64,000 bases of DNA from Mustelus asterias (Eukaryota): assembly GCF_964213995.1 (NCBI RefSeq), contig NW_027590163.1, positions 1 to 64,000 on the forward strand. Reading direction: 5' to 3'. Positions 1,171 through 28,673 of this stretch are shown piece after piece. Within the stretch, counting starts at the first letter, position 1; each line of letters starts with the position of its first letter. The translations under genes were made by a program, and so were the position numbers. The notes beneath the pieces are model-generated. The model saw nothing but the letters and a program-made list of their open reading frames with translations, searched no databases and was not told the origin of the DNA.

Positions 1171-1755
1171 AAAAGGATCTGGAAAAAATTATCTAAAACT
1201 TAATTTGGATATCCAGAGAGTGTGTGGGACGGGAATTTACAGATTTGGGGGAACAAGAGAGGATAAAATGTTCCAGAGAAACTAGAATTACCTGTTCATA
1301 GTTTCTGTCCTGGACTGACATTTGGTTACATTTGTAAACCCCATTGACAGAATATTAGAAGCTGAGGATTTGTGGAGAAAATATTTAATTAAGGATCAAT
1401 TCAGGGTCAAAGTCATTTGGGGGATGAAAGTGAAAAATATTCCACCAAATGAGAACTGTCTGTTCTGAATTTCTATCTTGTACTGACAGTGATGACTTTT
1501 TAAACTCCTTTATCAGGTTATTAGAAGCAGAGGATTTGGAGATAGGAAATGCAAACCAAACATCGCATCAACATCTGATACTCAATGAATCAGAGTGTGA
1601 GTATCATTGGCCTTTGAATGTGGAGGGAAGATTGTTTTAACAAGTTGCATAGCCTTTAAAACATTTCAACATTTGAAGCAGATAGAATCCACATGTACTG
1701 TGTATGAGGCTTGAACTGATCAACCAACCTGGAGAGAAACAAGGATACCAGCCCC

Positions 1756-2430
1756 ACAGAGAAACCGTGTAAATGTGGGGATTGTGGAAAGGGATTCAAG
1801 TATCCATCCCTGCTGGAAATTCATCGACGCAGTCACACTGGAGAGAAACCATTCACCTGCTCTGTATGTGGGAAGGGATTCACTCAGTCAACCACTCTGC
1901 TGAGACACCAGCGATTTCACACAGGGGAGAGACCGTTCCCCTGTTGTGTGTGTGGGAAGGGATTCACTCAGTCATCTGAGCTTCTGATACACTGGAGAGT
2001 TCATACTGGAGAGAAGCCATTCACCTGCTCTGTTTGTGGGAGGGGATTCACTCAGTTATCCCAGCTGCTGACACACCAGCGTGTTCACACTAGGGAGAGG
2101 CCATTCACCTGCCCTGTGTGTGAGAAGCGATTCACTAATTCATCAAACCTGCTTACACACCAGCGAGTTCACACTGGCGAGAGACCATTCGTTTGTTCCA
2201 TGTGTGAGAAAGGATTCACAACTTCATCCAACCTTTTGACACACCAGCGAATTCACACCCGGGAGAGGCCATTCACCTGTCCAGTGTGTGCAAGGGGATT
2301 CAGTCAGCTAGCCCACCTGCTGACACACCAGCAAGTTCACACCCGGGAGAGGCCATTCACCTGTTCAGTGTGTGCGAGGGGATTCAGTCAGCTAGCCCAG
2401 CTGCTGACACACCAGCAAGTTCACAAGTGA
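1756..2430 (+). CDS. C2H2 zinc-finger protein, 8 fingers; canonical start codon lost (possible pseudogene)
   Basis: Frame is open from 1720 to TGA 2428-2430 and reads [33 protein letters not shown].. continuing into ORF 1948..2430. The ATG of the family MEKPWKC start is ACA at 1756. Confidence 0.75.
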
Positions 2431-4228: not shown

Positions 4229-5248
4229 AACAACCCTACAACTGGCTGAAGTTTAATAATCTGGAGATGTCCCTTTTTAAAGGCACTATCTGTGATCTTT
4301 CAGCTGAATTAAAGAACTGTCAACAGAAACTTGGTTGCAATAAAATTATGAACTTTTTACTTCAATCCTAAATTGATCTTTGATGCAAAATCTACAACTC
4401 ATTGTCTCCCAAAGGTGATGGGTTCCCATCAAGTGGAGGTGACTTTTCCAGCTCAGGTACATTCACAGGATGGAGGAAGGTCACTCCAGCAGCTCAGCAA
4501 CAAGAGCCAACACTGAAAACAACAACCCACAACCAGACCTGAGAACCGCTTCACTCGTGGCAAAACCTGCCCCTCACGGATTGGTCCCTTCAGCCATCAG
4601 TAACAGTGAAGCAGAGGGTGCGTGGGCCTTCAGAGTCTCAGTGACCAGGAGAGAAAACAATTCTGCACAGAGGGGCCTGAGAGCTGAACCCAGACAGAGT
4701 GGAGGGAGGGAGAAAACTGAGTGGAGAAAATAATTGGTGGAGAGGGTGAGATGGGTTTGGATTTCAGCCCAGGGAGGGGGGAGAGTGTGTGAGATGGGGA
4801 TTTACAGATTTGGGGGAAACGAGAGGAAAAAATGTTCCAAAAACAAAACTAGAATGATCTGTTCAGAATTTCTATCCTGGACTGACCGTGATTAATTTTG
4901 TAAACTCTTTTTCCAGGTATTAACAAGAGAAAGATTTGTAGATGCAAAACTCAAAACAAACATTTTGGTTTGAGTCACTCGACCATTCATCAATCTGTGA
5001 ATGTGGAAGGAGAAATGTTTATCTCTTGAAGATTTTAAACATCGTGCAACTGGAAAAACACCGAGACACACACACACACCCGAGTGAGAGTGTTCCAGTG
5101 AACTGACTGTGGAAAGAGCTTTAACCAGTGACACAGCCTGAGAAAACATCACACCATTCACAGCAGGGAGAAACTGTACATGTGTTATCTGCATGGACGA
5201 GGTTTCAACTGATCATCTAACCTGGAGAGACACAAGGACACTGGCACC

Positions 5249-6049
5249 ATGGAGAAACCTTGGAAATGTGGGGAGTGTGGTAAAGGATTCAAGTCTTTAT
5301 TCCGGCTGGAAATCCATCAACGCAGTCACACCGGGGAGAAGCCATTCGTCTGTTCTGTGTGTGGGAAGGGATTTACCAAGACAACCTACCTGATGTTACA
5401 CCAGAGAATTCACACTGAGGAGAGGCCCTTCAGCTGCACTCACTGTGGGAAGAGGTTCAACAGCACATCCAGCCTCGCTACACACCAGCGGATTCACACT
5501 GGGGAGAAGCCGTTCACCTGCTCCGTGTGCGGTGAGAGATTCACTCGGTCATCCAGCCTTTGGACACATCAGCGAATTCACACTGAGGAGAAACCGTTCA
5601 GCTGCACTTCCTGTGGAAAGAGTTTTGGACAGTCATCCACCCTGAATGCTCACCAACGCACTCACACCGGGGAGAGACCATTCACCTGCTCCATATGTGG
5701 GAAGAAATTCTCTCAGTCATTCGATCTGGTGAGACACCAGCGACTTCACACCGGGGAGAGACCATTCACCTGCTCGGTGTGTGGGAAGGGATTCGCTCGG
5801 TTATTCACCCTCCAGTCCCACCACCGCACTCACACTCAGGAGAATCCATTCAGCTGCAGTACCTGTGGAAAGAGTTTCAAGCAGTCATCCAACCTCCTGA
5901 CTCACCGACGCACTCACTCTGGGGAGAGGCCTTTCACCTGCTCCTTGTGTGGAAAGGCATTCACAAGGTCCTCCAGCCTGCTGAGACACCAGCAAATTCA
6001 TAATAGACTGCAAGGATTGGATTCTGCTTTTAATCACAGCCAGGATTGA
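5249..6049 (+). CDS. C2H2 zinc-finger protein, 9 fingers, no KRAB
   Basis: Intact 266-aa ORF starting [14 protein letters not shown] with TGEKPF/TGERPF linkers. Upstream splice acceptor TTTTTCCAG near 4916. Confidence 0.92.
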   Translation: MEKPWKCGECGKGFKSLFRLEIHQRSHTGEKPFVCSVCGKGFTKTTYLMLHQRIHTEERPFSCTHCGKRFNSTSSLATHQRIHTGEKPFTCSVCGERFTRSSSLWTHQRIHTEEKPFSCTSCGKSFGQSSTLNAHQRTHTGERPFTCSICGKKFSQSFDLVRHQRLHTGERPFTCSVCGKGFARLFTLQSHHRTHTQENPFSCSTCGKSFKQSSNLLTHRRTHSGERPFTCSLCGKAFTRSSSLLRHQQIHNRLQGLDSAFNHSQD

Positions 6050-6549: not shown

Positions 6550-6800
6550 AAACAAAGAACAAAGAACAATACAGCACAGGAACAGGCCCTTCGGCCCTCC
6601 AAGCCCGCGCCGCTCCCCGGTCCAGGATTGAATCCTGAATCCAGGATCCCCGCCCAATTTTCCAGCCTATCTACATACCAATATCCTATCCACCGAGCTG
6701 TCCCTCACAGCTACGATGCTTTGTTCATTACAACCTATTAACTCACCCCCACCCCCCCATTCCAGACCATGTGATCTCCAGGGAGAGGCGAAAACCCAGA
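6550..6800 (-). mobile_element. CR1/L2-type LINE 3' end fragment
   Basis: Minus strand ends ..GAGGGCCGAAGGGCCTGTTCCTGTGCTGTATTG(TTCTTTG)n, the typical shark CR1 tail. Confidence 0.65.
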
Positions 6801-7059
6801 GTGAATATCACCATCTGCTGGCGACGTGCACTTACGGCAGGCGCTGGCATCTGTGAGTCTCGGGGAAGTTCAGTCACTGGATGGCTGGAACTGGCATCCG
6901 GTTGATGAAGTGCCAAAATTGAATAACATTGTTCATTCCCTGTTGCAAACTTTCATTCCTAAATTGGAATGAAAGTTTGCAACAGGTTCTTGGGTGGCGC
7001 GTTCGCCCATTTGTCACCAGGCACCGTATAAGAATTTTGTTCCCCATTCCCCATGGGAG

Positions 7060-7307
7060 ATATTGTCTGGAGTTGCAGTTCGGGATTATTGTGTGCATTA
7101 GTATTTAAAATAAATATTTATTGAAGATCTATAACACTGGAAATACGTTTCCAGATCTAGCGGAAAGATTTTCTTGCTGTTTTGCGCAAAGGAAATAAAA
7201 CTGTTCTTTTTAATGTTGCCGGGATGCTTCTCTCTGACACCGCCGTGTATCACTGTGCCACGGAGCCCACACTGCTGCAGAGATAGAGCGGATCCCGGAC
7301 AACAACC
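7060..7307 (+). pseudogene. Degenerate TCR alpha/delta V remnant with RSS
   Basis: ..PDLAERFS.. then a stop/frameshift, then ..GMLLSDTAVYHCATE, heptamer CACACTG (7268-7274), 24-nt spacer, ACAACAACC (7299-7307). Confidence 0.65.
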
Positions 7308-7333
7308 CCACACATGGGAGTTCCAGTTAGGTA

Positions 7334-7347
7334 CCACCAGAGGGCGC
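7334..7347 (+). promoter_or_regulatory. CTCF motif
   Basis: CCACCAGAGGGCGC matches the CCASYAGRKGGCRS core; ~30 bp 3' of a V RSS. Confidence 0.6.
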
Positions 7348-8123
7348 TCTTACGCTGATAAACAGAACCAATAATTCACTCTCCATGTGAGTCACAGGGA
7401 CCTTCCCAAGATATCAGAAAAAAAACACAACCTCAACAAGAGGTGAGCAACATTTGAGGAGTTATATTAGTTTATTTTAACTTGCATTTGTGCTATCGCC
7501 GATCTTCTTAAATCTATTCCATTTTGTTAGTTCAGTTGTTGCCCTTGGATGAAGTTTCCGTGTCTCTAATATTGAGCAACTCGATCCCCATCTCCCCAGA
7601 CAGTTTCTGAAGTCTATTACCGCGGCCTGGTCACTGGGTTTATTTGATCCGAGAGATGTGCTGCTTCCGAGAAAGTGTATACACAATGAAGAAATTTCAC
7701 AATGAAGTGACTGTGATCATTTAAATAGACATTGAGCACAGAATTCCCCCAATGACCAGTGAACTTCAGAATGTTTCCGTAATGCTGTTTTGTTACTATA
7801 AGCAACCCAGAATTTGCAGCTGCTAATTAACAGAGCAGGGTTTCATCCCCGCAACCCCATCCGGAAAAGTGCACCCGTTCCCCTATCGAGGTGCTGAAAT
7901 CAGCTCGGCTCGAGGGATTTCCTTTCGATATCAGCCAGTTCACAACTGAGAGATCTCACAGATTCATAGAGACACAATGATTGAAGTGGCAGGATGCTGG
8001 AAACACTTGGACTGATCACAGGTTAATGAGCAATCTTGCATAACTGACAGTCACATTATGGCTGCATCTGCCCGCGATTCTGAGCAACCCGCAGCAGACA
8101 GGATTTTCAACCTATAGTTAAAG

Positions 8124-8617
8124 GCAGTTTTTTCAGGGGTCACACTGCTTTCCATCACTGTGAGTTTCAGCGAGAGCGCAGTAATACAAGGCAGCGTCAG
8201 TCAGCTGCAGACCCCAGATGGTCAAACTGGTAAATTTACTCCATGCCTGAAGTTCTCCAGAGAAACGGCTTTGAGCGAAATCTGCTACATCGTCACCAAA
8301 CATCGAGTTCTTCCCCACTGTAACACAGGGTGTTGCCGGTACCAGTGTAAATTGTAGTTGCTCATTGTAGTATCATAGGTACAGTTTAAAGTCACAGTTT
8401 TTCCTTCTGTCTGTTATTCTGAGGACAGCGACTGAGTAACAATCTCCATGACCCAGATCTGAAAAACATGTTCGAACGGAAACAGATCAGACCGACTGAA
8501 TCCGTAAAATTCAGTTCAAAAACAAATTTGTAAAATTAAAGTAAATATGAAATGCGTTTGGTCCATAATTCCCTGTCAGGAATGTTCCCGCACAATCCAG
8601 AAGCTGAGTAGCAGCAT
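8124..8617 (-). pseudogene. TRAV: TCR alpha/delta V pseudogene (leader, V exon 8458-8163, RSS)
   Basis: Leader MLLLSFWIV.. has a frameshift and lost GT. Exon fragments read TEGKTVTLNCTYDTTMSNYNLHWYRQHP and DFAQSRFSGELQAWSKFTSLTIWGLQLTDAALYYCALAE, with stops and frameshifts. Heptamer CACAGTG at 8162-8156 plus an A-rich degenerate nonamer. Confidence 0.9.
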
Positions 8618-9182
8618 CGTTGTTGTCTGCTCTGTAAAAGTGGAGTTGGATATTTGAAGACACCCTTTCCAAACTTCACCCTGTATATTTTGCTGTCGTG
8701 TCTCGGAATGCTCTCGCTGCATTTCCCTGTATCCGCTGTGGTGCTGTGGGGTTGGTAGCTGATGAGCTGTCTGCCAGTGAATGGATTCACCCCGAGCTGG
8801 GTTCACTCAGTGTTCTGATAGGGCGAATGGTTTCCTAGTTAGACACGTGGGAAGAGATTTGTAACCGGAAACATGGGGTCACTGATGGGGTTTATTTATT
8901 CCGGCTTCAATTCTTCATCTCCGATTCCAGTAGAATCGATGCCAGTGAATGTGGGCGGATAAAACCCGAGTCTCAGCTTCTTTCATCAGTTCGACAGAGA
9001 GACGCCTCAGTTGGACACGAAGCAGGCGTTTGACTCCTTGTAAACTCTTCCGAATATTAAACCCAGGTCCTGGTTCCAATCTGAACTCCTTGGACAACTG
9101 CTTCAGCAGAAATTTCATGTGATCTGAAAAATGTTCCGAATTCACAGACTCTGTTTGCTGAGTTTCGCTCTGACCTGCACTG

Positions 9183-9464
9183 GGGTGACTGGAGCAGATG
9201 AGGTGATGCAGCTTCCTCGGTGGAAATGTTGTGAGTGAAGGGGGATCCGTATCCATGAACTGCACCACGACCACTACATTTAGCAACGCATATTGGTACA
9301 GACAGTCTCCGAATCAGCCACCCCAGTATCTGGTGATGGCCACAAGAGAAACCGATCAACGCGGGAGGATCACTGCCTCAATCGGCGGAGGCAGCAAATT
9401 CAGCGCCCTGACTGTGAGAGACGCCGGAGTTACAGACACTGCCACCTATCTCTGCGCCGTGAGC
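9183..9464 (+). pseudogene. TRAV: TCR alpha V pseudogene
   Basis: VTGADEVMQLP, then a 1-nt frameshift, then VSEGGSVSMNCTTTTTFSNAYWYRQSPNQPPQYLV..DTATYLCAVS. The acceptor appears mutated (GCACTG for GCACAG). Confidence 0.85.
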
Positions 9465-9503
9465 CACAGTGTGACAAACATAGGGTGAGCCCATACAAAA
9501 ACA
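9465..9503 (+). other. 23-spacer recombination signal sequence
   Basis: CACAGTG + 23 nt + ACAAAAACA. Confidence 0.95.
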
Positions 9504-10926
9504 TGCACAGACTGCGAGAGCAAGTCTGCTGAGTCCGGAGTATCGGCAGAGTGAATGGAATTATAAAAAGTCCATTAACAAAGGAAATGAGCGCAACACA
9601 AAATAAAATATAGAATCTAATTATTAAAATTCGGTCAGAAATGAAGAGAGATGAAAACAGAGATGGAGAAGAAGAAAGAAGGAAGATGTAAACCGCAATG
9701 AGCGAGCAGCAAATAGAAATAGAAAAGTTTAATCTTCATAGGAGAAGTGGACAGAAAATGAGGAAACCATCGAAAGGGAAATGGAAGAGACTGAAAAGCA
9801 CTGATTTTGATGGACAGATTGAAGATCAGATTAAATCATTAACAAAGAGAAGCTTTAATAAAGCAGCGTGTGATTTTTCCAGAACATCAACATTTACTTG
9901 CTATTTCAATAGTTGAATGGTCTGAAACATGTCACCGAAAGACCGGCCACTGGAAATTGCCCTATCGGTAAATTTGGGCTTTGCTCATTATCCCGACTAG
10001 GAGATTTCACATTAACTTCATTGCAGTGTTAATCTAAGCTTCCTTGTGACATTGGTGAATAAATTTTGCAACAAAAACGGAGAACAAGCTACCGATGGTA
10101 TTGAACAGATGCAGCACCTGAGGTTTATTAACAACGACGCAGATTTCAGAACACAAGCGGACACGTGTAACCCTGTACACATCATTGTTGAGGACACAGT
10201 TCAAACACTTGGATCTGTGCAGTGACTCTTCGTTCCTTTAGCGTTAATCTCAGACACAATGTGTAAAACAGACTGGGAAAGATGAAGTGGGGATGAGAGA
10301 GAGAGCACAGTGCTCAGCGGAGACTTGAGCAACTGGGGACATTTTCAATGGAGCTGCAATTCTGTTCAGAAGTGGTTGGCAGACTTGTACCCAATCGGAG
10401 CAGGTTTGGAAAAGGTTGAAAAGGAACTGGTCTCTCAGTGCGTGACTGGATAGCGGTATTTCTGGTGATCTTTATTAAACGGAGGGAGAAGACTTTTGTG
10501 TTCTGTGCAGTCGGCTGCTAGATGGTTCATGCTAAACTGTAATGGGGACAGAATCTATAAGTAATTTGCAGAGACAAGTGGATAAATATTTGACCAGCAA
10601 ACTGAAATTTTAAGTATATAAGATACATCGAATGCAATCTGCTGATAAAGAATAAGTGGGGAACCCATCAACAGAGACAGTACTTGAGCAATGAGCCGAA
10701 TGGTCTCTGTTAGTGCTACAACTGTCTACGATTCTAAGATTATGAACGGCTCTTTTCATTTAGAAAGGCACCAGAGCACAGCCGTTATGAAACAATTTAC
10801 TCTGTTGTTACACACAGGAAGCAGATAGTGGTGACACGGTGGCTCATCAGAGTGTAAAGCTCTCGCCCCTCCTTCCCCTCTCCACCACTCAGAGGCTAGG
10901 CCTCGGCTGCAAGTACCAGTCTAGAA

Positions 10927-11026
10927 ATGAGACCCGGACTGATCCTCCTGGGCATCTTCATCAACATGGAGAAGAACACCCGCAAAAACCGCTTTCCAGT
11001 TGGGACTCTGATGCTGTTGATATTGT
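10927..11026 (+). CDS. Leader exon of the intact TCR V segment
   Basis: MRPGLILLGIFINMEKNTRKNRFPVGTLMLLIL (alternative ATG at 10966), ending in phase 1 at donor GTGAGT 11027-11032. Confidence 0.7.
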
Positions 11027-11074
11027 GTGAGTTTATTTTTCTATTATTCATTATTTCAACACTCTCTTCATATT

Positions 11075-11416
11075 ATCATAGAAACCCTACAGTACAGAAA
11101 GAGGCCATTCGGCCCATCGAGTCTGCACCGACCACAACCCCACCCAGACCCTACCCCCATATCCCTACATATTTTACCCACTAATCTCTCTAACCTATAC
11201 ATCCCAGGACACTAAGGGGCAATTTTAGCATGGCCAATCTACCTAATCTGCACATCTTTGGACTGTGGGAGGAAACCGGAGCACCCGATTGGAAACCCAT
11301 GCAGACACGAGGAGAATATGCAAACTCCACACAGACAGTGACCCGAGCCGGGAATCGAACCCAGGTCCCTGGCGCTGTAAAGCAGCAGTGCTAACCACTG
11401 TGCTACCGTGCCGCCC
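11075..11416 (-). mobile_element. HE1/V-SINE inside the V leader intron
   Basis: Near-full copy of the 491-833 element. Confidence 0.9.
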
Positions 11417-11451
11417 CATGCGGTTTGTGAGTGATTTTCTTCTGTTCACAG

Positions 11452-11733
11452 CCGTTCAGTGTGAGGATCAGAGCTCCCACCCTGAGCAGATGGTGTCTCG
11501 GGAAAGGGAACAGTTTGAACTGAATTGTCGGCTCTCCATTGGTCCAGACGTTACCGTACTCTGGTACAGACAAACACTGACATGGGCTCCGACATTGATC
11601 GCCTCCATTTACGATGGAAGTGCGACCAAAGGACGTTACACACTGTCCTTTGACCGAGTAAAGAATTCAAAAACCATCTGTATTGATGACACCTCGGTCC
11701 AGGACTCCGGAATGTATCTGTGCGTGAAGCAGA
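11452..11733 (+). CDS. TRAV: Intact TCR alpha/delta-type V exon
   Basis: Acceptor TTCTGTTCACAG, phase 1. Reads SVQCEDQSSHPEQMVSREREQFELNCRLSIGPDVTVLWYRQ..GRYTLSFDRVKNSKTICIDDTSVQDSGMYLCVKQ with canonical C, W, C. Confidence 0.85.
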
Positions 11734-11772
11734 CACAGTGAGACAAAGAGCGGATCCGGATGAACAATATCC
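11734..11772 (+). other. 23-RSS
   Basis: CACAGTG + 23 nt + ACAATATCC. Confidence 0.9.
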
Positions 11773-12208
11773 TGCTCACTGCCCTGCCTCCGCTGCATGT
11801 TTAAATTTACCCAAAACTGGTGCCTTTAGCAATGCCGGTGATATTAGAAGTATCAATTTTCCATTTTTAACCTTCCATCTGGATAGAGTTGCAATATCCG
11901 ATAACTGTCAGTACAGGTGCAGTGTATGGAAACATATTAAGTAAACTCTCTTGTTTCCTTGTTCCACACACTGAGTAAAGAAACAAACAGGAAAAATAAC
12001 TGCTTCTCAGACACCGAAGCGGATAGAAATGCAACAGAAAGATGGCTAAACATGAAAAAAAGGAAGATAGAAAGATCTATAATAAGTAGATTTGTTCTTT
12101 GTTCTTTGGATAGATAGACGCATAGATCAGTTAATTCTGTCTATGTACGCAAGCACTTTATTTATCCCTGTATGTATCTTCATGTTAATTGTATTCTTAT
12201 TGTGACAG

Positions 12209-12489
12209 ATGTTCCTTTTCACTCGGAAACATTTCAGGTGTCGCTGAATCGGGTAAAACTGGGACAGACCGTCTCCCTTCACCACAATGTTACTGTCACT
12301 ACAAATGACTTTGTATTCTGGTACCGGCAATTCACCAATCAAGCTCCCGAGTATCTCGTATCCACATTCAGAGATGTAACAGTTGAGGGAAGGTTTAAAG
12401 CATTTGTGGACCGTGTGAAAGGCTTCACTGCTCTCACTGTTAACACGGTTGAGTTGTCAGACGCTGCGGTGTATTACAGTGCAGTGAGG
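12209..12489 (+). pseudogene. TRAV: TCR alpha V exon with open frame but both canonical cysteines replaced
   Basis: Acceptor TTATTGTGACAG. Reads ..GQTVSLHHNV..FWYRQFTNQAPEYLV..GRFKAFVD..LSDAAVYYSAVR. No intact leader donor found. Confidence 0.85.
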
Positions 12490-12528
12490 CACGGTGAAAC
12501 AGAGAGATGAGGAGCCTGTACAATAACT
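12490..12528 (+). other. 23-RSS
   Basis: CACGGTG + 23 nt + ACAATAACT. Confidence 0.9.
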
Positions 12529-12533
12529 CACTC

Positions 12534-12790
12534 ATGATGTGGAGATGCCGGCGTTGGACTGGGGTAAATACGGTAAGAAGTCTTACAACACCAAGTTAAA
12601 GTCCAACAGGTTTATTTGGTAGCAAAAGCCACTAGCTTTCGGAACAGGCTGTTCCTTCGTCAGGTGAGTGGGAGTTCTGATCACAAACAGGGCACAAAGA
12701 CACAAACTCAATTTACATGAATAATGATTGGAATGTGAGTCTTTACAGCTAATCAAGTCTTAAAGGTACAGACAATGTGAGTGGAGGGAG
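12534..12790 (-). mobile_element. Penelope pLTR fragment with 13-bp TSD
   Basis: Reverse complement of the 3' repeat at 4010-4228. TSD CAATAACTCACTC at 12521-12533 and 12791-12803. Confidence 0.9.
12630..12666 (-). ncRNA. Minimal hammerhead ribozyme motif
   Basis: cac-CTGACGA-a-GGAACA gcc TGTTCC-GAAA-GCTA-gtg. Confidence 0.75.
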
Positions 12791-13839
12791 CAATAACTCA
12801 CTCGACATGGGGACAGTGGGCACAACAGCCCATAGACTTTAGAAATGAGTGTGATGCAAGTAAAATCGACAGAAAATGTTCTTGGTCCGAGTAATATGAT
12901 GGGATTGAAAATGCATGTTATTATTTCTAATAATTGAACTTGCAGATTAACACTCAGAAGAAACATGTAAATCATTCTTTGATACATTGGCTGATTGAAA
13001 TTTGGTTGTCATAATTGTTTTATTGTCAGCGAGCTTTCAAAACTTCCGTTCGTTCGAAATGAACAATTCAAGCATATCAGTTGTGGATTTATGAGTTTAT
13101 TAAAGCAAAATTCATCCATCTACACAGCTGAACATGCACTGTGCTAATGGCGCAGGCGCACCTGAAAACTGAGATAAATGATTTGTATCAATACTAAACA
13201 GCAAATGTAGCAAAATCAAAATGACAAAGGCAGCAGATGTCGCAATAACATCAAAGTAATAAAACACATAATAAACTGCAACAATAAAAATCCTGCAATA
13301 TGATGCAGCAACATAAACAAAATTGAGAATCGCTGTATCACAGATGACGCCCCAAGACCTCATCTTTCGCTAAAACTTGCAGAACCGTCAGTTCCCCTGT
13401 CACAGGTGACAGCTGGAGCATTTTGACACCACCACAAACTACAGCGCAAGAGCCGATGTGTGAATTACGGAAGTTCTAAACCAGAAACTTTGGGATCTAT
13501 CCCCAATTCAGGGCATTGTGGCAACAGACATTATCCAGTCACAGAGGTTGATGATCTGTTTGTAAATTCTTCCAATAAGCCGAATGACAAATGATAAGAA
13601 CAGGAGAGTTGCCTGGCCAGCCTTACTGCAGGAGGTGATGGAAACCACTGCAGGACTTTGCCAGGCATAATCATGGAGCAATCAAATGGAATTCTTTGAT
13701 AAACCAGCTCCACCTCAAGTAAGAAAACATATCTTGTAATTAATAGTTTGAGAAATCACCAGGATTTCAGGTTTCATTTCAGACTCACTCTGATCATAAT
13801 GTTTTCCTAACGCTCTGTTATGTTGAGCGAGCCTCTGAC

Positions 13840-13878
13840 AGTTTTTGTACAGGTTCAGCCCAGCTCTGTGTCTCTGTG
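13840..13878 (-). other. 23-RSS
   Basis: CACAGAG + 23 nt + ACAAAAACT on the minus strand. Confidence 0.9.
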
Positions 13879-14302
13879 GGTCTCAGTGCGCAGTAATAAA
13901 CCCCGGAGTCTGCCAGCTCTGTTTTAGACACTTTCAGCGGGACGGTGCGGGTTGTATCATTGAGCTCCGCTAAAAAACGGTCCCCTGAGGATCTCCCTGT
14001 GTTTCCGCTGTATTTATTTGTCTGCAGCAGGAACTCCATGAATCCGCTGGGATACTGACGGTAACCAGAACAAGTATAGAGTGTTCGCACTTGTAGCTGA
14101 ATAATTACAGAACAACCCTACATTGACTCCTTCAGTGACGGCGACTGCAGGTGTCTGTGAAACAGAATCTCCTCGACAATGCCCTGTAAAAACACAAAGG
14201 AATATTAAGTTACACAATGCGCCTGCACTCTGTTTCCCCCAGGACTTGCTCATCAACCTGAACATAACCTCAGAGAGAAATCAGACAGCTGAACAGAAGC
14301 AT
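13879..14302 (-). pseudogene. TRAV: TCR alpha V pseudogene (V exon 14183-13879)
   Basis: HCRGDSVSQTPAVAVTEGVNVGLFCNYSATSANTLYLFW, then a 1-nt insertion, then YRQYPSGFMEFLLQ..LADSGVYYCALRP. Leader MLLFSCLISL* has a GC donor. Confidence 0.9.
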
Positions 14303-14708
14303 ATTTTTCACAGTTCAGTGGCTGGAACGGGAAGGTGCTGGCGGTGATTAAATAAAACTTCCAACATAAACATTCTGTACTTTCTAACGAGATTAGTTCC
14401 TCGCCTTCATTCCCTGTGACTGGAACGGGAAATTGCTCACTGTCTGTGTGTTTGAAAGTCTAGTGATTGTCAAATCATTTTTTGTTATCAGAGAAGTTTG
14501 AATCTCGGCCTAACTTCGAAAATGTGTCGACTGCCATCAAACAGTGTTCAGTGTTGAAATCAGCGAGATCCGAATGACTATTCGAAGTTGGGATCAAGCC
14601 AATCCTCCGATCACCTACCCTCACCCCCTTCCACTGAACGAACTGCCCGATATAATATAGTGTGAGGGAAACATGTGAAACACAGTGTTGAGCAACTTGT
14701 GAACTTAC

Positions 14709-14760
14709 CAGTTAAAAGAGCTGCTGCTGTGAGGAATAAATATAGGGTAACAGGAGACAT
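14709..14760 (-). CDS. Orphan signal-peptide (leader) exon
   Basis: MSPVTLYLFLTAAALLT + G, perfect GTAAGT donor. TGAGTCA and a CRE-like GATGTCAT lie upstream. Confidence 0.7.
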
Positions 14761-15132
14761 GTTTGCAGAGAGCTCGCAGTGGATGTGACCAGAAAGGGTT
14801 GAAGCTGAAATTGTTTTCGTCAAGAGTTGGGAAGAAGTTGAGTCATATCCGGGCCCCTATTGATTGGTTCATTGCTGCCAACCTCATCATATGACATCCA
14901 ATTGGCTTCAAATAATAAAATTCAGTCTCACCAATTCCAATTCAGAATTCTCGGAAGAAGATATTTGGTGAGGTATGTAAATCAACAAGCCCCAAAATGT
15001 TCTCAATGACCCCATTCCAAACCTGATTGAACAGAATCTGATGTGGAGATGCCGGCGTTGGACTGGGGTGAACACAGTAAGAAGTCTCACAACACCAGGT
15101 TAAAGTCCAACAGGTTTATTTGGTAGCAAACA

Positions 15133-15169
15133 CCATAAGCTTTCGGAGCGCTGCTCCTTCGTCAGATGG
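15133..15169 (-). ncRNA. Minimal hammerhead ribozyme motif
   Basis: ccat-CTGACGA-a-GGAGC agc GCTCC-GAAA-GCTT-atgg. Confidence 0.75.
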
Positions 15170-15466
15170 AGTGGAAATGTGCTCTCAAACAGTGCACAGA
15201 GACACAAAATCAAGTTACAGAATACTGAATTAGAATGCGAATCCCTACAGCCAGCCAGGTCTTAAAGATGCAGACAATGCAGATGCAGAAATAGGCAGAG
15301 CCCCCAGGATGGGTAATTAGCAGTAAAAAAAAATTAGCAGACAAGTCCCTCCACCCACATTGTCTCCATCTTTAAGATCTGGTTGGCTGTAGGGATTCGC
15401 ATTCTAATCAGTATTCTGTAACTTGATTTTGTGTCTCTGTGCACTGTTTGAGAGCACATTTTCACT

Positions 15467-15503
15467 CCATCTGACGAAGGAGCAGCGCTCCGAAAGCTTA
15501 TGG
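15467..15503 (+). ncRNA. Minimal hammerhead ribozyme motif
   Basis: ccat-CTGACGA-a-GGAGC agc GCTCC-GAAA-GCTT-atgg. Confidence 0.75.
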
Positions 15504-15574
15504 TGTTTGCTACCAAATAAACCCATTGGACTTTAACCTGGTGTTGTGAGACTTCTTACTGTGAACAGAATCTG

Positions 15575-15588
15575 CCAGCAGAGGGCAC
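15575..15588 (+). promoter_or_regulatory. CTCF motif upstream of a V promoter
   Basis: CCAGCAGAGGGCAC, followed by E-box CACGTG and TGAGGTCA before the V leader region. Confidence 0.6.
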
Positions 15589-15860
15589 CGAATCCCTGCA
15601 TGCTCATTAGAAGGTCACGTGGGTCCAACGCCGAAGCCAAAAGGGATGTGTTCCTGAGTGAGGTCACAATGGGGCTGGTCCCTGCATTGTGTCTCAATCA
15701 TCCCATTCCCATTCACTGAGATACTCAGTCAGACAGACTGGCGGCGCTATGTGACAGTAAGTGAAGAATTATGTTCATTAACACAGTTTAGCAGATTGAC
15801 GACAATAGATTGTAATCTGATTTAATATAGTTCACGGTATATATGTATATAATATATATA

Positions 15861-16198
15861 TCATAGAAATCATAGAAACCCTACAGTACAGAAAGAGGCC
15901 ATTCGGCCCATCGAGTCTGCACCGACCACAATCCCACCCAGGCCCTACCCCCATATCCACCCGCTAATCCCTCTAACCTACACATCTCAGAACACTAAGG
16001 GGCAATTTTAGCATGGCCAATCAACCTAACCCGCACATCTTTGGACAGTGGGAGGAAACCGGAGCACCCGGAGGAAACCCACGCAGACACGAGGAGAATG
16101 TGCAAACTCCACACAGACAGTGACCCGAGCCGGGAATCGAACCCAGGTCCCTGGAGCTGTGAAGCAGCAGTGCTAACCACTGTGCTACCGTGCCGCCC
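15861..16198 (-). mobile_element. HE1/V-SINE inside a V leader intron
   Basis: Near-full copy of the family. Confidence 0.9.
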
Positions 16199-16299
16199 AT
16201 GTATTTATATATGGACAGGTTGTAAAATGGAAACTTACGCACACATACAGATATATCGTTCCTCTTTAACCTTGGACTCTTATTTATCTACTTTTACAG

Positions 16300-16597
16300 G
16301 CGGAATATGTGCAGTAACTCAGTCTCTGGTGCCGTTAACTGTGCAAGAAGAAGGTTTAGCGCAGTTAGATTGTGAATAATCAGATCAACTATGCAATTGC
16401 ATCAGCAGAAATAGGCAGAGCACCCAGGATGGGTAAATAGCACTAAAAAAAATTAGCACTGGGAAAGGGAAAATCTCAGCAACATTTGTGATGGCTGTTG
16501 ACGAGTCTGGTTCCTCAGTATAGGCGGCATGAGCGCGGAGGATGGAACGGCCGATTACTATGCTGTGAGGCACAGCGTCAGGAAAAGCACATAAACC
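16300..16597 (+). pseudogene. TRAV: TCR alpha V pseudogene with short-spacer RSS
   Basis: Acceptor CTTTTACAG. Reads GICAVTQSLVPLTVQEEGLAQLDCE* .. SAEDGTADYYAVR, then CACAGCG (16571-16577) + 11 nt + ACATAAACC. Donor GTAAGT near 15757. Confidence 0.8.
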
Positions 16598-17249
16598 TCA
16601 GCGCATTCGGTCAAATGTTTTTGGGGCCTTTACCTGAGACATTAGTTTCTTTCTAGCTTTACAGAGTCAGGTTTTTATATCAAACGTTTGGATTGCTGTC
16701 CCTGCCCTTGTTGAAATCAATGGGGAGCCTGTCTGGGAAATCAGAATTCATAACTGTACCCCAAGTGATATCAGCTCAGTAAATAACTTGGAACATAGTG
16801 TGCCGGCCGAGGTGGAGAATACCGACAGGCGTGCAGTAATGCCGCTCATTATGGGCTGTTCATCCTGCCAGTTAACTGAAAAGGATCCCAAGGCAGTGAG
16901 TCTGTGTCACTGGGTTCTATATCAAAAACAAAATGTATAAAAGTCTGGGATTGAATTTAACCAATGAAGTGAAAAATGGTCCTTTAGAAAGCAAATCACC
17001 GAACAGCACAACCAGGACATCAGAAAGGTCCTTGGACAGCAACTGTGCCTGGTGTAGATTCGGACAGGCAATAACTCACATCTAACAGTATGTTGTTCCT
17101 TCTCGCCTGAAGTTAAATAAGGAACGCAGATCAGGAATATATTTCACTTACTGGGAGACTGGAGAAAGTTTTCCAGGGACAGCTTTATATAAATGCCCAG
17201 TTCTCTGATGAAGCACAGGCTACAAACATGCCAGGACTGTTCTTCTGCC

Positions 17250-17330
17250 GGTTTTTGTACGACCGATATTGATCTTCACTGCACAGAAATAGGTGGCGGT
17301 GTCTGTGATCTTGGCGTCGCTAACATTTAG
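17250..17330 (-). pseudogene. TRAV: 3' fragment of a TCR alpha V
   Basis: LNVSDAKITDTATYFCAV, then 18 nt, then a perfect nonamer ACAAAAACC; the heptamer is missing. Confidence 0.75.
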
Positions 17331-17944
17331 AACGTTTCGAGTCCAGATGACCCTTCGTTAAATTGTTGTTGTGAGCTGCATTATTTGTGAGAATGAGAGT
17401 GACGGAGTGGGATTGATCCACAGCCAGTGTCACCAGTTTGAGGACAGGAGGGGAGAGAACCTAGAGAGAAGACTAGAAACTGAATCGAGCAATGAGCAGA
17501 GAGGGAGAAGTGTGTGTGGGGCACAGAATTGTTTGCTCTGAATTTATGTCCTGTACTTACACTGATAACTTCTGTAAACTCCTTTTGCAGGGAGTTCGAG
17601 GGAGAGAATTTCCAGATGGGAAAGTCAGAACAAACATCATATCAAAATCTGACAGTCACTTGATTCATCAGGACCTGAATATCATCAACCTCTGAATGTG
17701 GAAGGAGAAATGTTTGTCTGTTCTGTCTGTGGGGAAAGATTTTAAACATCAGTGTAACTGGAAAAGCACCGAGACACACATACACCCGAGTGAGAGTGTT
17801 CCAGTGAACTGACTGTGGAAAGAACTTTAACCATTAAACAGCCTGAAAAAACATCATACCATTCAGTGTGGAGAAATGTACAGGTGTTCTGTGTGAGGCT
17901 CCAACTGATCATCCAACCTGGAGAGACAAATGAATAATTGAATC

Positions 17945-18940
17945 GCGGAGAAAGCGTGGACATATGGTGACTGTGGGATGGGATTAATTTTCCCTTTTGA
18001 ACTGGGACATGATCAATGCAGTCACACTGGGGAGGGACCTTTCACCTTCTCCATGTGTGGAGATGGATTTACTCAGTTATCCAGTCTGTCGACACACCAG
18101 CCAGTTCATACCCAGGAGAGGCTGTTCAGATGCTCCATGTGTGGGAAGGAATTTACTGACTCATGTGACCTCCTGGCTCATGAGCAAGTTCACACTGAGG
18201 AGAGCGCATTCACCAGGCCTGTGTGTGGCAACAAATTCACTCAGTCATCCCAGGTCACTGAACATCAACATGTACACAGTGATCAGAGACTTTTTAAATG
18301 TTCTGACTGTGAGAAGAGCTTTAAAAGCAAGAAGTATCTGCAAATACACCAGCGACTTCACACTGGGGAGAAACCGTTCATCTTGTGTGTGAGTGGGAAG
18401 AGATTTGTTCAGTCATTTGACTTGCTAATTCACCAGCGACATCACATTGGGGTGAGGCCATTCACTTGCTGTGTGTGTGAAAAGGGATTCACTCAACCAC
18501 ACCAGCGAGTTCACACTGAGGAGAGGCCATTTATTTGCTGTGTGTGTGGGAAGGGATTCACTCAGACATCCCACCTTGTGACACACCAGCAGGTTCACAC
18601 TGGGAACAGACCATTCATCTGCTCTGAGAGTGTGAAGGGATTCACTCAGTCATACCAGCTTCTGTTGCACCAGCGAGTTCACATTGGAGAGAGGCCATTC
18701 ACCTGCTCCACGTGTGCTAAGGGATTCATTCAGTGATCAGACAGTCTGGTGCACCAACGAGTTCATACTAAGGAGAGGCTATTCACCTGCTCTGTTTGTG
18801 GGAAAAGAATCTCTCAGTCTTCCCAACTCCTGAAACACCAGCGAGTTCACACTGGGGAGAGGCCATTCACCTGCTCTGAGTGTGGGAAGGGATTCACTCA
18901 GTCATCACACCTTGTGACACACCAGCGAGTTCACAAATGA
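17945..18940 (+). pseudogene. C2H2 zinc-finger pseudogene
   Basis: Same-frame ORFs 17978-18736 and 18749-18940 split by TGA. Several fingers lack Cys or carry deletions; the start is decayed. Confidence 0.85.
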
Positions 18941-19649
18941 CTGCAAGAATTAGATTCTGCTTTTAATCATATTGAAGACTGAATGTGTGGGTTAATCCTG
19001 ATGTGTGTGAGGAAGCCACTCTCTTCCATGGTTTAGAGCTCCTAGATATGGAACAGAAGCTCCTTTACAACTATGTTTAGAGTCAGGAAGAATGCTGGAA
19101 ACATGCTGTCAAATCAGAGATTGGTGTAAAACTGGGATCTGTTCCTGACTGAAAGTAAAACGGCAGGTTTAACTTTACAGTCTGAAAATAGTACGAAGAT
19201 TGAAAATGTTTGTGTGACATTCCTGGATCTACAATGTAAGGTAATGATAACATCAAGTTACATTTCTATCTGGAACCTTTAACCATCTCTCACCTTCCAT
19301 TGACTTCACTGTGATAGAAACTGACTGTTGAAATCTGTCAACATTAGAAACCTATTTCTAAATAATTTGCAGGTTCTTTACCGTTGGGATCTTTCTCTGT
19401 TCGCTCCACTCAAGGTATTAGATACCAGACTTTCTCCTGTGAATATCCAGCTGGAGTATTGGGCTCTGATGTGTTTCTTTGTTCATCTTATTGACTCTAA
19501 ATATTGAACCTTGTAGTTTCAGACACCAGATAATCAAATCCCCAACAACAGATTGTCTTTTACTGACTTTATTAACAGCACTGCAATAATACAGACAGAG
19601 TAATTCCTCACATGGTTCCAGTACTCAGTGAAATACTTATTTTTTATTC

Positions 19650-20022
19650 ATTCATGTGATGTGGATGTCACTGGCTTGGCCAGCATTTAGTACCCACCCT
19701 AATTACCCTTGGACTGAGGAGTTTGCTAGGCCATTGCAGAGGGCATTTAAGAGTCAACCACATTGCTGTGAATCTGGAGTCAAAGATGTGCCAGACCAGG
19801 TAAGGATGGCAGATTTCCTTCCCTAAACACATTCGTGAACCAGATGGGGTTTTTTTTACAACAATCGACAACAGTTTCATGGTCATGAGACTTTTAACTC
19901 CAGATTTTTATTGAATTCAGATTTCACCACCTGCCGTGGTGGGATTCGAACCCTGGTCCCTGAAGTATTACCTGGGACTCTTGATTACTAGTCCAGCGAC
20001 AATATCACTCTGCCACTGCCTG
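19650..20022 (-). mobile_element. DeuSINE (SacSINE1-like)
   Basis: tRNA-like head GGCAGTGGCAGAGTG..GGGTTCGAATCCCACC and core CACAGCAATGTGGTTGACTCTTAA; paralogous to 27849 and 30683. Confidence 0.75.
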
Positions 20023-20686
20023 CCTTTTATATGAAATTTATCTGCATCCCCGAGCCTGTAATGGTGTATTGGTCTGTAATTTTAACATAATCTAATTCAA
20101 TATTCCTTCTTTAATATCCTGTCTACCACTTCCCTATTACCTGGTGAATTTGTTAATTGTTATTATTACTGGATTGTCACAGGTTTCCATGTGTTTAACA
20201 TGATTATTTGGTCTGTACCTGAATTTTATGATTTTTTGATATAAGTTACACAGCAATTCAGCCTTGTGGCTGTGAGCCTGTTTCTTGAATGAAATATCAT
20301 TCGATTTAAAAAGTTACCCAGTCTGCAGAACAGAGATAATACAGTGGATTCAGAACTCTCTCCTCCTCAGCTCTGATCTAACAAGCTGCAGCTACACTAG
20401 AGATATTCATGTTTAAATTGTTCACGACAGTTGTGATCTGACCCTGTTCAAACTGTAACCAGAATGATATCTGTGCATTGTTCTGAGTGTGAGCACAGGT
20501 TGTGTCACTGTCACAAACAGATACCATTTCCTTGGTTCATATCTCCACACAAAGACCAGCTCTTTACACATCCCCTTTCTGCACAATCACAGCAACATGA
20601 GCAAGGATATGAGGCTCATTACTTTTCACCCACATTTCATAACAGCAAAGGCTCCACTGTACAGGAGCACACTGACTGGAGAAGAG

Positions 20687-23460
20687 TCTAATCAGCCTGC
20701 AGGCTCCTGTTAAATACAGAGCAGCAGAGGAACACGCTGACAGTGTAACACTGTCTCATCAGCCTGCAGGCTCCTGTTAAATACAGAGCAGCAGAGGAAC
20801 ATGCTGACAGTGTAACACTGTCTCATCAGCCTGCAGGCTCCTGTTAAATACAGAGCAGTACAGGAACACACTGACAGTGTAACACTGTCTCATCAGCCTG
20901 CAGGCTCCTGTTAAATACAGAGCAGTACAGGAACAAACTGACAGTGTAACAGAGTCTCATCAGCCTGCAGGCTCCTGTTAAATACAGAGCAGTACAGGAA
21001 CACACTGACAGTGTAACACTGTCTCATCAGCCTGCAGGCTCCTGTTAAATACAGAGCAGCAGAGGAACACACTGACAGTGTAACACAGTCTCATCAGCCT
21101 GCAGGTTCCTGTTAAATACAGAGCAGCAGAGGAACACACTGACAGTGTAACACTGTCTCATCAGCCTGCAGGCTCCTGTTAAATACAGAGCAGCAGAGGA
21201 ACACACTGACAGTGTAACACAGTCTCATCAGCCTGCAGGTTCCTGTTAAATACAGAGCAGCAGAGGAACACACTGACAGTGTTACACTGTCTCATCAGCC
21301 TGCAGGCTCCTGTTAAATACAGAGCAGTACAGGAACACACTGACAGTGTAACACAGTCTCATCAGCCTGCAGGCTCCTGTTAAATACAGAGCAGCAGAGG
21401 AACACACTGACAGTGTAACACAGTCTCATCAGCCTGCAGGTTCCTGTTAAATACAGAGCAGCAGAGGAACACACTGACAGTGTAACACTGTCTCATCAGC
21501 CTGCAGGCTCCTGTTAAATACAGAGCAGTACAGGAACACACTGACAGTGTAACACAGTCTCATCAGCCTGCAGGTTCCTGTTAAATACAGAGCAGTACAG
21601 GAACACACTGACAGTGTAACACTGTCTCATCAGCCTGCAGGTTCCTGTTAAATACAGAGCAGCAGAGGAACACACTGACAGTGTAACACAATCTCATCAG
21701 CCTGCAGGCTCCTGTTAAATACAGAGCAGCAGAGGAACACACTGACAGTGTAACACTGTCTCATCAGCCTGCAGGCTCCTGTTAAATACAGAGCAGTACA
21801 GGAACACACTGACAGTGTAACACAGTCTCATCAGCCTGCAGGCTCCTGTTAAATACAGAGCAGTACAGGAACACACTGACAGTGTAACACTGTCTCATCA
21901 GCCTGCAGGCTCCTGTTAAATACAGAGCAGTACAGGAACACACTGACAGTGTAACACAGTCTCATCAGCCTGCAGGTTCCTGTTAAATACAGAGCAGTAC
22001 AGGAACACACTGACAGTGTAACACTGTCTCATCAGCCTGCAGGTTCCTGTTAAATACAGAGCAGCAGAGGAACACACTGACAGTGTAACACTGTCTCATC
22101 AGCCTGCAGGCTCCTGTTAAATACAGAGCAGCAGAGGAACACACTGACAGTGTAACACAATCTCATCAGCCTGCAGGCTCCTGTTAAATACAGAGCAGTA
22201 CAGGAACACACTGACAGTGAACACTGTCTCATCAGCCTGCAGGCTCCTGTTAAATACAGAGCAGTGCAGGAACACACTGACAGTGTAACACAATCTCATC
22301 AGCCTGCAGGCTCCTGTTAAATACAGAGCAGTACAGGAACACACTGACAGTGTAACACTGTCTCATCAGCCTGCAGGTTCCTGTTAAATACAGAGCTGTA
22401 CAGGAACACACTGACAGTGTAACACTGTCTCATCAGCCTGCAGGTTCCTGTTAAATACAGAGCTGTACAGGAACACACTGACAGTGTAACACTGTCTCAT
22501 CAGCCTGCAGGCTCCTGTTAAATACAGAGCTGTACAGGAACACACTGACAGTGAACACTGTCTCATCAGCCTGCAGGCTCCTGTTAAATACAGAGCAGTA
22601 CAGGAACACACTGACAGTGTAACACAATCTCATCAGCCTGCAGGCTCCTGTTAAATACAGAGCAGTACAGGAACACACTGACAGTGTAACACTGTCTCAT
22701 CAGCCTGCAGGTTCCTGTTAAATACAGAGCTGTACAGGAACACACTGACAGTGTAACACAATCTCATCAGCCTGCAGGCTCCTGTTAAATACAGAGCAGT
22801 GCAGGAACACACTGACAGTGTAACACAATCTCATCAGCCTGCAGGCTCCTGTTAAATACAGAGCAGTACAGGAACACACTGACAGTGTAACACTGTCTCA
22901 TCAGCCTGCAGGCTCCTGTTAAATACAGAGCAGCAGAGGAACACACTGACAGTGTAACACAGTCTCATCAGCCTGCAGGTTCCTGTTAAATACAGAGCAG
23001 CAGAGGAACACACTGACAGTGTAACACTGTCTCATCAGCCTGCAGGCTCCTGTTAAATACAGAGCAGTACAGGAACACACTGACAGTGTAACACAATCTC
23101 ATCAGCCTGCAGGCTCCTGTTAAATACAGAGCAGTGCAGGAACACACTGACAGTGTAACACAATCTCATCAGCCTGCAGGCTCCTGTTAAATACAGAGCA
23201 GCAGAGGAACACACTGACAGTGTTACACTGTCTCATCAGCCTGCAGGCTCCTGTTAAATACAGAGCAGCAGAGGAACACACTGACAGTGTAACACAGTCT
23301 CATCAGCCTGCAGGTTCCTGTTAAATACAGAGCAGCAGAGGAACACACTGACAGTGTAACACAGTCTCATCAGCCTGCAGGCTCCTGTTAAATACAGAGC
23401 AGCAGAGGAACACACTGACAGTGTTACACTGTCTCATCAGCCTGCAGGCTCCTGTTAAAT
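20687..23460. repeat. 67-bp tandem repeat array, ~41 copies
   Basis: Unit TCTCATCAGCCTGCAGGCTCCTGTTAAATACAGAGCAGCAGAGGAACACACTGACAGTGTAACACTG; variation limited to a few fixed positions. Confidence 0.98.
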
Positions 23461-28190: not shown

Positions 28191-28234
28191 TAAAAAATAG
28201 ACTGGCCTGTTTGTGTATTGTGTATCTCATGTAT

Positions 28235-28525: not shown

Positions 28526-28673
28526 CCATGTAATTCTTTGTAAACTTATTTTACAGGAAATTGAAGAGAAGGATCTGCAGTCTGGATGATCGAATCTCAC
28601 GTCAGACAGAGTCAATCGGTTCATCGGGATCTGAAAATTTGTGCATCTGAAGGGATTTAATTGACCATCTCAG

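What the first reader, a model, noticed from the sequence alone, without database searches (positions are those of the whole stretch)
6800..17330. Island of TCR alpha/delta V segments walled by ZNF genes, 22 kb from an IgM constant region
Seen: at least eight V segments of clearly different families in ~11 kb, in mixed orientation (+,-,+,+,+,-,+,-). Most are pseudogenes but keep good 23-RSS (9465, 11734, 12490, 13840). No TCR D, J or C is in the window. Established: sharks rearrange Ig V segments into TCR delta, and Ig-type V segments occur in the shark TCR alpha/delta locus. Inference: this is direct physical interleaving of TCR V, IgH C and ZNF modules, either the distal edge of TRA/TRD or an orphon, and a substrate for Ig-TCR chimeric receptors.
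Basis: partly seen in the sequence, partly recalled or inferred. Interest (0 to 1): 0.75.

Follow-up and report, generated by a model that had tools for sequence, protein, structure and literature searches.

The report
Duplicated shark T-cell receptor gene island
This is a mostly dead patch of shark T-cell-receptor variable gene pieces, copied repeatedly among antibody and zinc-finger genes in a way already reported for sharks, but the same assembly also holds 19 copies of the receptor's delta constant gene, which likely means this receptor is built from many small clusters, as shark antibodies are.

Summary
Observation confirmed: eight TCR alpha/delta-type V remnants (+,-,+,+,+,-,+,-) lie between ZNF genes, 22 kb downstream of IgM constant exons; only V4 is intact. 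A second scaffold shows the same V-ZNF-Cmu order, so 17-39 kb is not misassembled. TCR V exons between IgH clusters are published (PMC12227049) and this scan noted such islands elsewhere in this genome. The island is not a locus edge but one copy of an amplified V array (a 98.8% twin of the whole island; 31 other V3 copies). Its scaffold has no TRDC or TRAC, and the Cmu has lost V-D-J, so it is no local substrate for TCR-V/Cmu chimeras. The surprise lies outside the window: 19 TRDC exons, mostly in D-J-C cassettes among about 98 IgM copies, three of them on one chromosome scaffold 6-11 Mb from TRA, which lacks an upstream TRDC. Seven of 19 D-delta segments are already joined in the assembly, one to this island's V6 family and one to an IgM D behind an intact IgM VH. 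I found no report of multi-cluster shark TCR-delta, but four key papers were not held, and copy number and germline status need confirming.

The parts
1720..2427 (+). C2H2 ZNF exon, 8 fingers, left wall
5213..6046 (+). C2H2 ZNF exon, 9 fingers, left wall
7134..7307 (+). V1: 3' remnant of an alpha/delta V with RSS (24-bp spacer)
   Evidence: 60-63% over 30 aa to V at C436 and C546
8124..8617 (-). V2: pseudogene (stop in FR1, frameshift, leader donor not found), heptamer intact, weak nonamer
9131..9503 (+). V3: leader fused to V exon without intron, frameshift in FR1, good 23-RSS at 9465; open-frame paralogs exist
10966..11772 (+). V4: the only structurally intact segment (leader 10966-11026, 425-nt GT-AG intron, open frame with both Cys and Trp, 23-RSS at 11734); divergent family
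12223..12528 (+). V5: open frame but both canonical Cys replaced, leader not found, 23-RSS at 12490
13840..14760 (-). V6: leader 14709-14760, 525-nt GT-AG intron, one-base frameshift near the Trp, 23-RSS 13878-13840; family is TRA-linked and rearranges
16300..16597 (+). V7: decayed V, RSS spacer shortened to 11 bp
   Evidence: no significant match to references
17250..17345 (-). V8: 3' fragment, heptamer lost, nonamer kept
   Evidence: (71% over 21 aa to C546 V)
17942..37130 (.). five ZNF exons in both orientations (near 18.1, 24.3, 28.8-30.6, 34.6, 36.5 kb), some with stops, and a tandem repeat at 20.7-23.4 kb
39700..47420 (-). IgM constant gene: Cmu1 47100-47420, Cmu2 45820-46150, Cmu3 44595-44915, Cmu4 plus secretory tail 43715-44110, TM1 39925-40070, TM2 near 39790
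47420..56398 (-). remaining 9 kb of the IgM J-C intron; homology to complete IgM clusters stops at 56398
56388..56738 (+). 5'-truncated ZNF exon that stands where JH, D and VH lie in paralogous clusters

Best explanation
The island is a real block of TCR alpha/delta V segments, seven broken and one intact, that was likely carried here as a passenger by segmental duplication of the shark antigen-receptor complex, in which IgM clusters, V arrays, ZNF genes and complete TCR-delta D-J-C cassettes were amplified together. Shown: the copies, their order and identity, the missing V-D-J of the Cmu, no TRDC/TRAC on the scaffold, 19 TRDC exons, 7 pre-joined D-delta segments. Inferred: unequal recombination between long repeats as the copying route; decay because this copy has no near D/J partner; RAG as the maker of the joints, in germ cells. 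The locus works as a reservoir of 23-RSS V segments: when a duplication puts such an island upstream of a 12-RSS D-delta or J-alpha it can be used (seen for the V6 family); here only V4 could still yield a chain, and only by a long-range join.
For: Whole island plus flanks is 98.8-99.5% identical to C105 over 20 kb, where ZNF genes, not D-J-C, continue for 24 kb beyond the point where the window's scaffold ends. C107 keeps V1-V6 in the same order at 76-94%. Sub-blocks recur on many scaffolds and on chromosome scaffold C71 at 6.51 and 6.57 Mb (26 of 15198 candidates scored). V3: 31 other copies at 79-94% (150 of 1289 scored). V4: 9 other copies at 91-100% and one at 59%, all open. Cmu2: 98 matches at 65% or more, 23 on C71. 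C306 repeats V6-V8, ZNFs and Cmu in order. 6 of 6 paralogous Cmu examined have VH and JH upstream; the window's copy has none. TRDC 19 matches, TRAC 2, none on C131. In C270 and C71:11.02 Mb related V islands start a few kb after an IgM TM exon, and in the latter run into a TRD cassette. V6 groups with two intact V on the TRAJ-TRAC contig C546 (99/95), is joined to D-delta at C71:11.0238 Mb and runs in frame into a TRAJ-like stretch in one public contig at 95% identity.
Against: C131 is unplaced, so its distance to a TRD or TRA J cluster is unknown. The break at 56398 occurs in 1 of 40 scored matches, so loss of V-D-J from this Cmu could be a misjoin. C105 could be the other allele and some TRDC copies allelic (one pair 100.0%, one trio 99.8-99.9% over about 6 kb). 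V2, V4 and V5 have no supported link to a TRA-linked reference in the tree, deep branches are weak, and all reference labels are my own, from position in this genome. No ZNF or repeat was shown to sit at the duplication breakpoints. The transcript-like contigs are three short pieces from other samples whose RNA status is a guess.
Confidence: 0.75

Rival explanations
1. The island is part of the working V field of one long, ZNF-diluted TRA/TRD translocon, and V4 is used in ordinary long-range V-J-alpha or V-D-delta joins.
For: Published shark V fields span megabases in both orientations between IgM genes (Table S1 of PMC12227049). V4 is intact and all 11 family matches are open. Close copies of island blocks lie on C71, which carries TRA and three TRD cassettes. 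This is compatible with the best explanation for V4 alone.
Against: 7 of 8 segments are broken; no J or C on 1.05 Mb of C131 or on the 1.5-Mb scaffold of its twin; nearest TRDC to the C71 copies is about 0.56 Mb away.
Confidence: 0.15
2. The multi-copy picture is largely an assembly artefact: unpurged haplotypes and misjoins in a repeat-rich region inflate V, Cmu and TRDC copies.
For: Most copies are on unplaced scaffolds; several are over 99% identical; one junction is unique.
Against: Three TRDC copies on one chromosome scaffold differ by 1.3-2.7%, with different D and J sets; 8 groups remain at 99% single linkage, spanning 91.5-100%. TRAC shows no allelic duplicate: 2 copies at 74%. C850, identical to C71:12.27 at TRDC, is only 87-91% alike upstream. 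One pre-joined V-D junction is identical on three diverged scaffolds.
Confidence: 0.07
3. The island and the neighbouring Cmu form a local substrate for TCR-V/IgM-constant chimeric receptors.
For: Proximity (22 kb), intact Cmu exons, intact V4 with a 23-RSS.
Against: No D or J belongs to this Cmu; no V lies upstream of it on its strand; documented chimeras run Ig V onto TCR-delta D-J-C (PMC5931798 passage), as does the C138 locus.
Confidence: 0.03

Closest known systems
Elasmobranch antigen-receptor complex, AgRC (Flajnik et al. 2025, PMC12227049; read: abstract to start of discussion, section 15, Table S1)
   Same: IgM clusters, TCR alpha/delta V exons in mixed orientation, NAR-TCR cassettes, pseudogenes and 'IgM (missing V)' are interleaved on one chromosome.
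   Different: The paper calls TCR alpha/delta a translocon; Table S1 shows one TRD model next to TRA in catshark and stingray. Here 19 TRDC copies lie apart from two TRA loci. Its main text has no mention of zinc fingers. Table S1 rests on gene models and is not a full copy count.
[quoted passage not shown] 2023, PMC10322711; passages)
   Same: 37 J with 12-RSS and one C with the TRAC signature at C71:18.37-18.43 Mb; cassette C exons carry the TRDC signature.
   Different: The 70 kb upstream of the first J hold eight ZNF exons and no TRDC, without a gap.
Newt TRA/TRD separation and TRA duplication (PMC12698447; abstract)
   Same: TRD detached from TRA; two TRA loci.
   Different: Newt loci are on separate chromosomes; here TRD is amplified and partly on the same chromosome among IgM clusters.
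TCR-mu (TRM) clusters of marsupials and monotremes (PMC7615758; abstract)
   Same: A delta-related TCR in repeated cluster organization.
   Different: TRM is a separate mammalian isotype; these cassettes are TCR-delta proper by signature, D type and NAR-TCR content.
Germline-joined shark Ig genes and IgH-to-TCR-delta trans-rearrangement (PMC6795676 and PMC5931798, passages; PMC2193156, listing only)
   Same: Coding-joint-like V-D and D-D fusions in genomic DNA; Ig V used with TCR-delta D-J-C.
   Different: At C138 the Ig-TCR joint is in the assembled genome rather than in lymphocyte cDNA.

Membership tests
TRAV/TRDV gene segment | V-domain frame with both Cys and the FR2 Trp | tested here: met
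   V4 intact; V2, V3, V6 across a break; not met by V5 (both Cys lost); V1, V7, V8 are fragments
TRAV/TRDV gene segment | 3' RSS with 23-bp spacer | tested here: met
   4 of 8 clear (V3-V6); V1 24 bp, V2 weak, V7 11 bp, V8 no heptamer
TRAV/TRDV gene segment | groups with TRA/TRD V, not IgH, IgL, NAR, TRB or TRG V | tested here: met
   V3 and V6 in supported clades with V of the TRA contig C546 (99/98, 99/95); V2, V4, V5 outside the other classes but without a supported TRA-linked partner; 40 rows, own-genome references only; PDB best natural hits TCR alpha
TRAV/TRDV gene segment | rearranges to D-delta or J-alpha | tested here: inconclusive
   shown for V6 relatives, not for any copy in this window
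IgM minicluster (V-D-D-J-C) | VH, D and JH upstream of Cmu1 | tested here: not met
   none in 157 kb upstream; present in 6 of 6 paralogs examined
Elasmobranch AgRC | IgH clusters and TCR alpha/delta genes on one chromosome, V exons between IgH clusters | tested here: met
   C71 holds 23 Cmu2 matches, 3 TRDC, 1 TRAC and copies of island blocks; C131 itself is unplaced
Elasmobranch AgRC | linkage to PSMB5, UrIg2, IgW and IgNAR | not tested
   no search made
Canonical TRA/TRD translocon | single TRDC directly upstream of the TRAJ array | tested here: not met
   C71: ZNFs upstream, nearest TRDC 6.1 Mb away. C546: no TRDC, but a 200-N run lies 8.5 kb before the first J, so that locus is open
TCR-delta (for the 19 cassettes) | C exon signature CLxxxFxP, TCR-type TM exon, D with 12/23 RSS, J with 12-RSS | tested here: met
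   19 of 19 C exons open with the signature; TM found for 18 of 19, one not reached; D in 18 of 19 C-bearing cassettes plus one scaffold without C
TCR-delta (for the 19 cassettes) | expressed and paired with TCR-gamma | not testable with these tools
   no RNA run of this organism was listed

The most novel reading that the evidence does not exclude
In this shark TCR-delta has left the TRA locus and been amplified into ten or more Ig-style miniclusters (NAR-TCR V-D-J, supporting V-delta, IgH-like V, D-delta, J-delta, C-delta) scattered among about a hundred IgM clusters, fed by duplicated V islands such as this one; germ-line RAG activity has pre-joined about a third of the D-delta segments, including a hard-wired IgM VH-D / TCR-delta J-C gene.
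Probability: 0.55. Interest if true: 0.78.

Novelty: new variant of a known kind. Interest (0 to 1): 0.55.

Why it matters
The island alone is a local view of a published arrangement. The context matters more: cartilaginous fish are said to keep TCR genes as translocons and only Ig genes as clusters (PMC6795676 passage, PMC12227049). Many C-delta cassettes among IgM clusters would break that rule, turn Ig-to-TCR-delta 'trans' rearrangements into short cis deletions (a complete IgM cluster lies 56 kb upstream of D-delta on the same strand at C71:7.06-7.12 Mb), offer a route for the birth of cluster-type TCRs such as TCR-mu, and make locus exclusion in gamma-delta T cells testable through cassette-specific substitutions.

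Tried and rejected
Protein database search for full-length chains with V3 gave nothing (139 candidates, none scored), so no named shark TRAV/TRDV/TAILV sequences were available; the tree uses position-labelled references from this genome. V1, V7, V8 were left out of the tree as too short. Run search with V6: no RNA holder listed; only 13500-14950 was laid, so V3, V4 and V5 have no expression test. Contig depth was not used. Criscitiello 2006 and 2010, Deiss 2019 and Ott 2021 are not held and may describe TRD copy number; I recall, unverified, 1990s reports of several TCR constant loci in a horn shark. Eight literature searches listed no paper on multi-copy shark TRDC; only the top 15-25 hits of each were seen, and the main supplementary PDF of PMC12227049 was not read. 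Rejected: reading the dispersed J segments as TRAJ (they follow a 12/23 D and precede a TRDC-signature exon); a supposed first D-delta at C71:7102637 (it is the end of an IgH-like V); C850 as a rearranged allele of C71:12.27 (upstream only 87-91% alike); ZNF-to-ZNF recombination at 56398 (the paralog has no ZNF there).
Full report
Observation. The window is the first 64 kb of an unplaced 1.05-Mb scaffold, C131, of a 3.68-Gb assembly. Four keep clear 23-bp RSS; 6 of the 11 RSS-like sites in the window are at these V ends. V3, V4 and V5 were searched against PDB and the best natural single-domain hits are TCR alpha chains. Only V4 has leader, GT-AG intron, open frame, both cysteines and RSS; V2, V3 and V6 are frameshifted, V5 has lost both cysteines, V1, V7 and V8 are fragments. 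ZNF exons flank the island on both sides, and a full set of IgM constant exons lies on the minus strand at 39.7-47.4 kb.

Identity of the V segments. In a 40-row tree built from V domains of this genome, labelled by their position next to J and C genes, none of the five window rows fell with IgM VH, IgH-like V, NAR V, IgL, TRB or TRG V. V6 and V3 joined supported clades with V segments of contig C546, which carries a TRAJ array and TRAC. V2, V4 and V5 had no supported TRA-linked partner, and deep branches were weak. A V6 relative is joined to D-delta at C71:11.0238 Mb: the V end is trimmed by about 6 bases (judged from the window's V6), one base is untemplated and the D is trimmed by 3 bases relative to the unjoined D on three other scaffolds. 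In public contigs of two other samples, whose RNA status is a guess, one V6-like piece (95%) continues in frame into a TRAJ-like stretch and another splices the leader to the V exon across the 525-base GT-AG intron. The family is therefore a working alpha/delta V family; this copy is dead.

Is the neighbourhood real? Scaffold C306 is collinear with window 14356-47678 at 89-98.5%, with V6-V8, the ZNF genes and Cmu in the same order. Scaffold C105 matches window 1-20104 at 98.8-99.5% and continues with four more ZNF exons where C131 ends. C107 holds V1-V6 in the same order at lower identity. Misassembly between 17 and 39 kb is thus unlikely, and the island is a copy of an older V array. V3 has 31 other copies at 79-94%, V4 ten other matches, Cmu2 98 matches at 65% or more, 23 of them on the 20.4-Mb scaffold C71. 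These are lower bounds, as only the best candidates were scored.

The Cmu. It aligns to a complete IgM cluster at C71:7.06-7.08 Mb (96% over 12.9 kb, 88% over 4.7 kb) until window 56398, where a truncated ZNF exon begins; no VH or JH follows in the 157 kb read upstream. All 6 paralogs examined have VH and JH. The junction is seen in 1 of 40 scored matches, so it is a private deletion or a misjoin. Either way the V segments lie downstream of this gene, and a TCR-V/Cmu product has no route here.

Where the partners are. A J pattern gave 68 matches, 0 for the reversed control, none on C131. Two dense arrays are TRA: 37 J and a C with the published TRAC signature at C71:18.37-18.43 Mb, and a second on C546 with a 74% identical C. 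The scattered J segments belong to TCR-delta cassettes: NAR-type V-D-J, supporting V-delta, IgH-like V segments, one 12/23 D, up to four J and a C with the TRDC signature (the names NAR-TCR, supporting V and TAILV-like are recalled). The C exon has 19 matches, all open, 91.5-100% alike over about 6 kb, forming 8 groups at 99%. Three lie on C71 at 7.14, 11.04 and 12.27 Mb and differ by 1.3-2.7%. If every locus were present as two alleles, 19 copies would still mean ten loci. Five of 19 have a same-strand Cmu2 within 110 kb upstream. No TRDC precedes the TRAJ array on C71, where eight ZNF exons fill a gap-free 70 kb; on C546 a 200-N run leaves the point open.

Pre-joined segments. Of 19 D-delta sites, 12 are unjoined, 6 are joined to a V and 1 to another D. 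Three scaffolds share one supporting-V/D junction, which argues for inheritance. On C138 an intact IgM VH with its RSS and first D, 99.2% identical over 1860 bases to the IgM cluster at C71:7.06 Mb, is fused at the D end to the last 10 bases of D-delta and continues into four J-delta and C-delta with no gap in the stretches read. This obeys the 12/23 rule and would give an IgM-VH/TCR-delta chain by two cis joins. Single-copy joints (C71:11.02, C138, C401, C850) could be captured lymphocyte DNA or misjoins; that was not testable.

Mechanism. Shown: multi-copy blocks, decayed V segments, headless Cmu, absent local partners, amplified TRD cassettes, coding-joint-like fusions. Inferred: repeated segmental duplication and unequal exchange spread IgM-V island-TRD modules through a ZNF-rich region; copies separated from a D-J-C decay; RAG acting in germ cells made the joints, as is established for shark Ig clusters (PMC6795676, passage).

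Comparison with print. The same paper and a review describe shark TCR genes as translocons. TRA/TRD separation was reported in 2025 for newts as not seen before in jawed vertebrates (abstract), and cluster organization is known for TCR-mu (abstract). Eight searches listed no report of multi-copy shark TRDC, but four central papers were not held. Earlier notes of this scan on the same genome describe V islands and pre-joined NAR-TCR cassettes; none of those shown (8 of 89 and 8 of 173) mentions TRDC copy number.

Verdict. The island is real and ordinary for the shark antigen-receptor complex (about 0.25 on its own). It led to a likely multi-cluster TCR-delta organization with a hard-wired Ig-TCR locus, which a specialist would not expect; overall interest 0.55.

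Noticed in passing
G000:C138:197039-218469 (-), L140, L168, L082: Intact IgM VH and D1 fused to D-delta, followed by four J-delta and C-delta: an assembled Ig/TCR-delta chimeric locus.
   Followed up: partly
G000:C71:7138102, 11043420, 12270565 and 16 unplaced scaffolds: 19 open TRDC exons in D-J-C cassettes, apart from TRA.
   Followed up: yes
G000:C71:18.37-18.43 Mb and C546:138-240 kb: Two TRA J-C loci with only 74% identical C exons; neither has a TRDC found upstream.
   Followed up: partly
G000:C96:1455090, C119:553650, C436:213697, C401:832, C850:36255, C71:11023757: V-to-D-delta joints in the assembly; three scaffolds share one junction.
   Followed up: partly
window 9131-9464; L119; L107: The V3 family has its leader fused to the V exon with no intron, also in open-frame paralogs on C232 and in a 2.46-kb tandem array at C71:19.36-19.40 Mb; its sister on C546 keeps the intron.
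   Followed up: partly
window 12223-12489; C232, C105: V5 keeps an open frame and RSS in several copies although both canonical cysteines are replaced.
   Followed up: no
L064 (C110:950845), C71:7097667 and other cassettes: A divergent, well-conserved V (95-100% between cassettes) sits between the supporting V-delta and the IgH-like V; long branch, unclassified.
   Followed up: no
G000:C71:18419700-18431600: About 12 kb of short-period satellite lies between the TRAC Ig exon and its TM exon.
   Followed up: no
G000:C69:30.53 and 30.61 Mb, C73:7.08 Mb: TRB-type J clusters in at least two opposed positions on C69 and an identical J on C73, suggesting duplicated TRB loci.
   Followed up: no
window 20700-23450: Tandem repeat of about 67-bp units between two ZNF genes.
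   Followed up: no
window 16571-16597: The RSS of decayed V7 has an 11-bp spacer, close to a 12-type signal.
   Followed up: no
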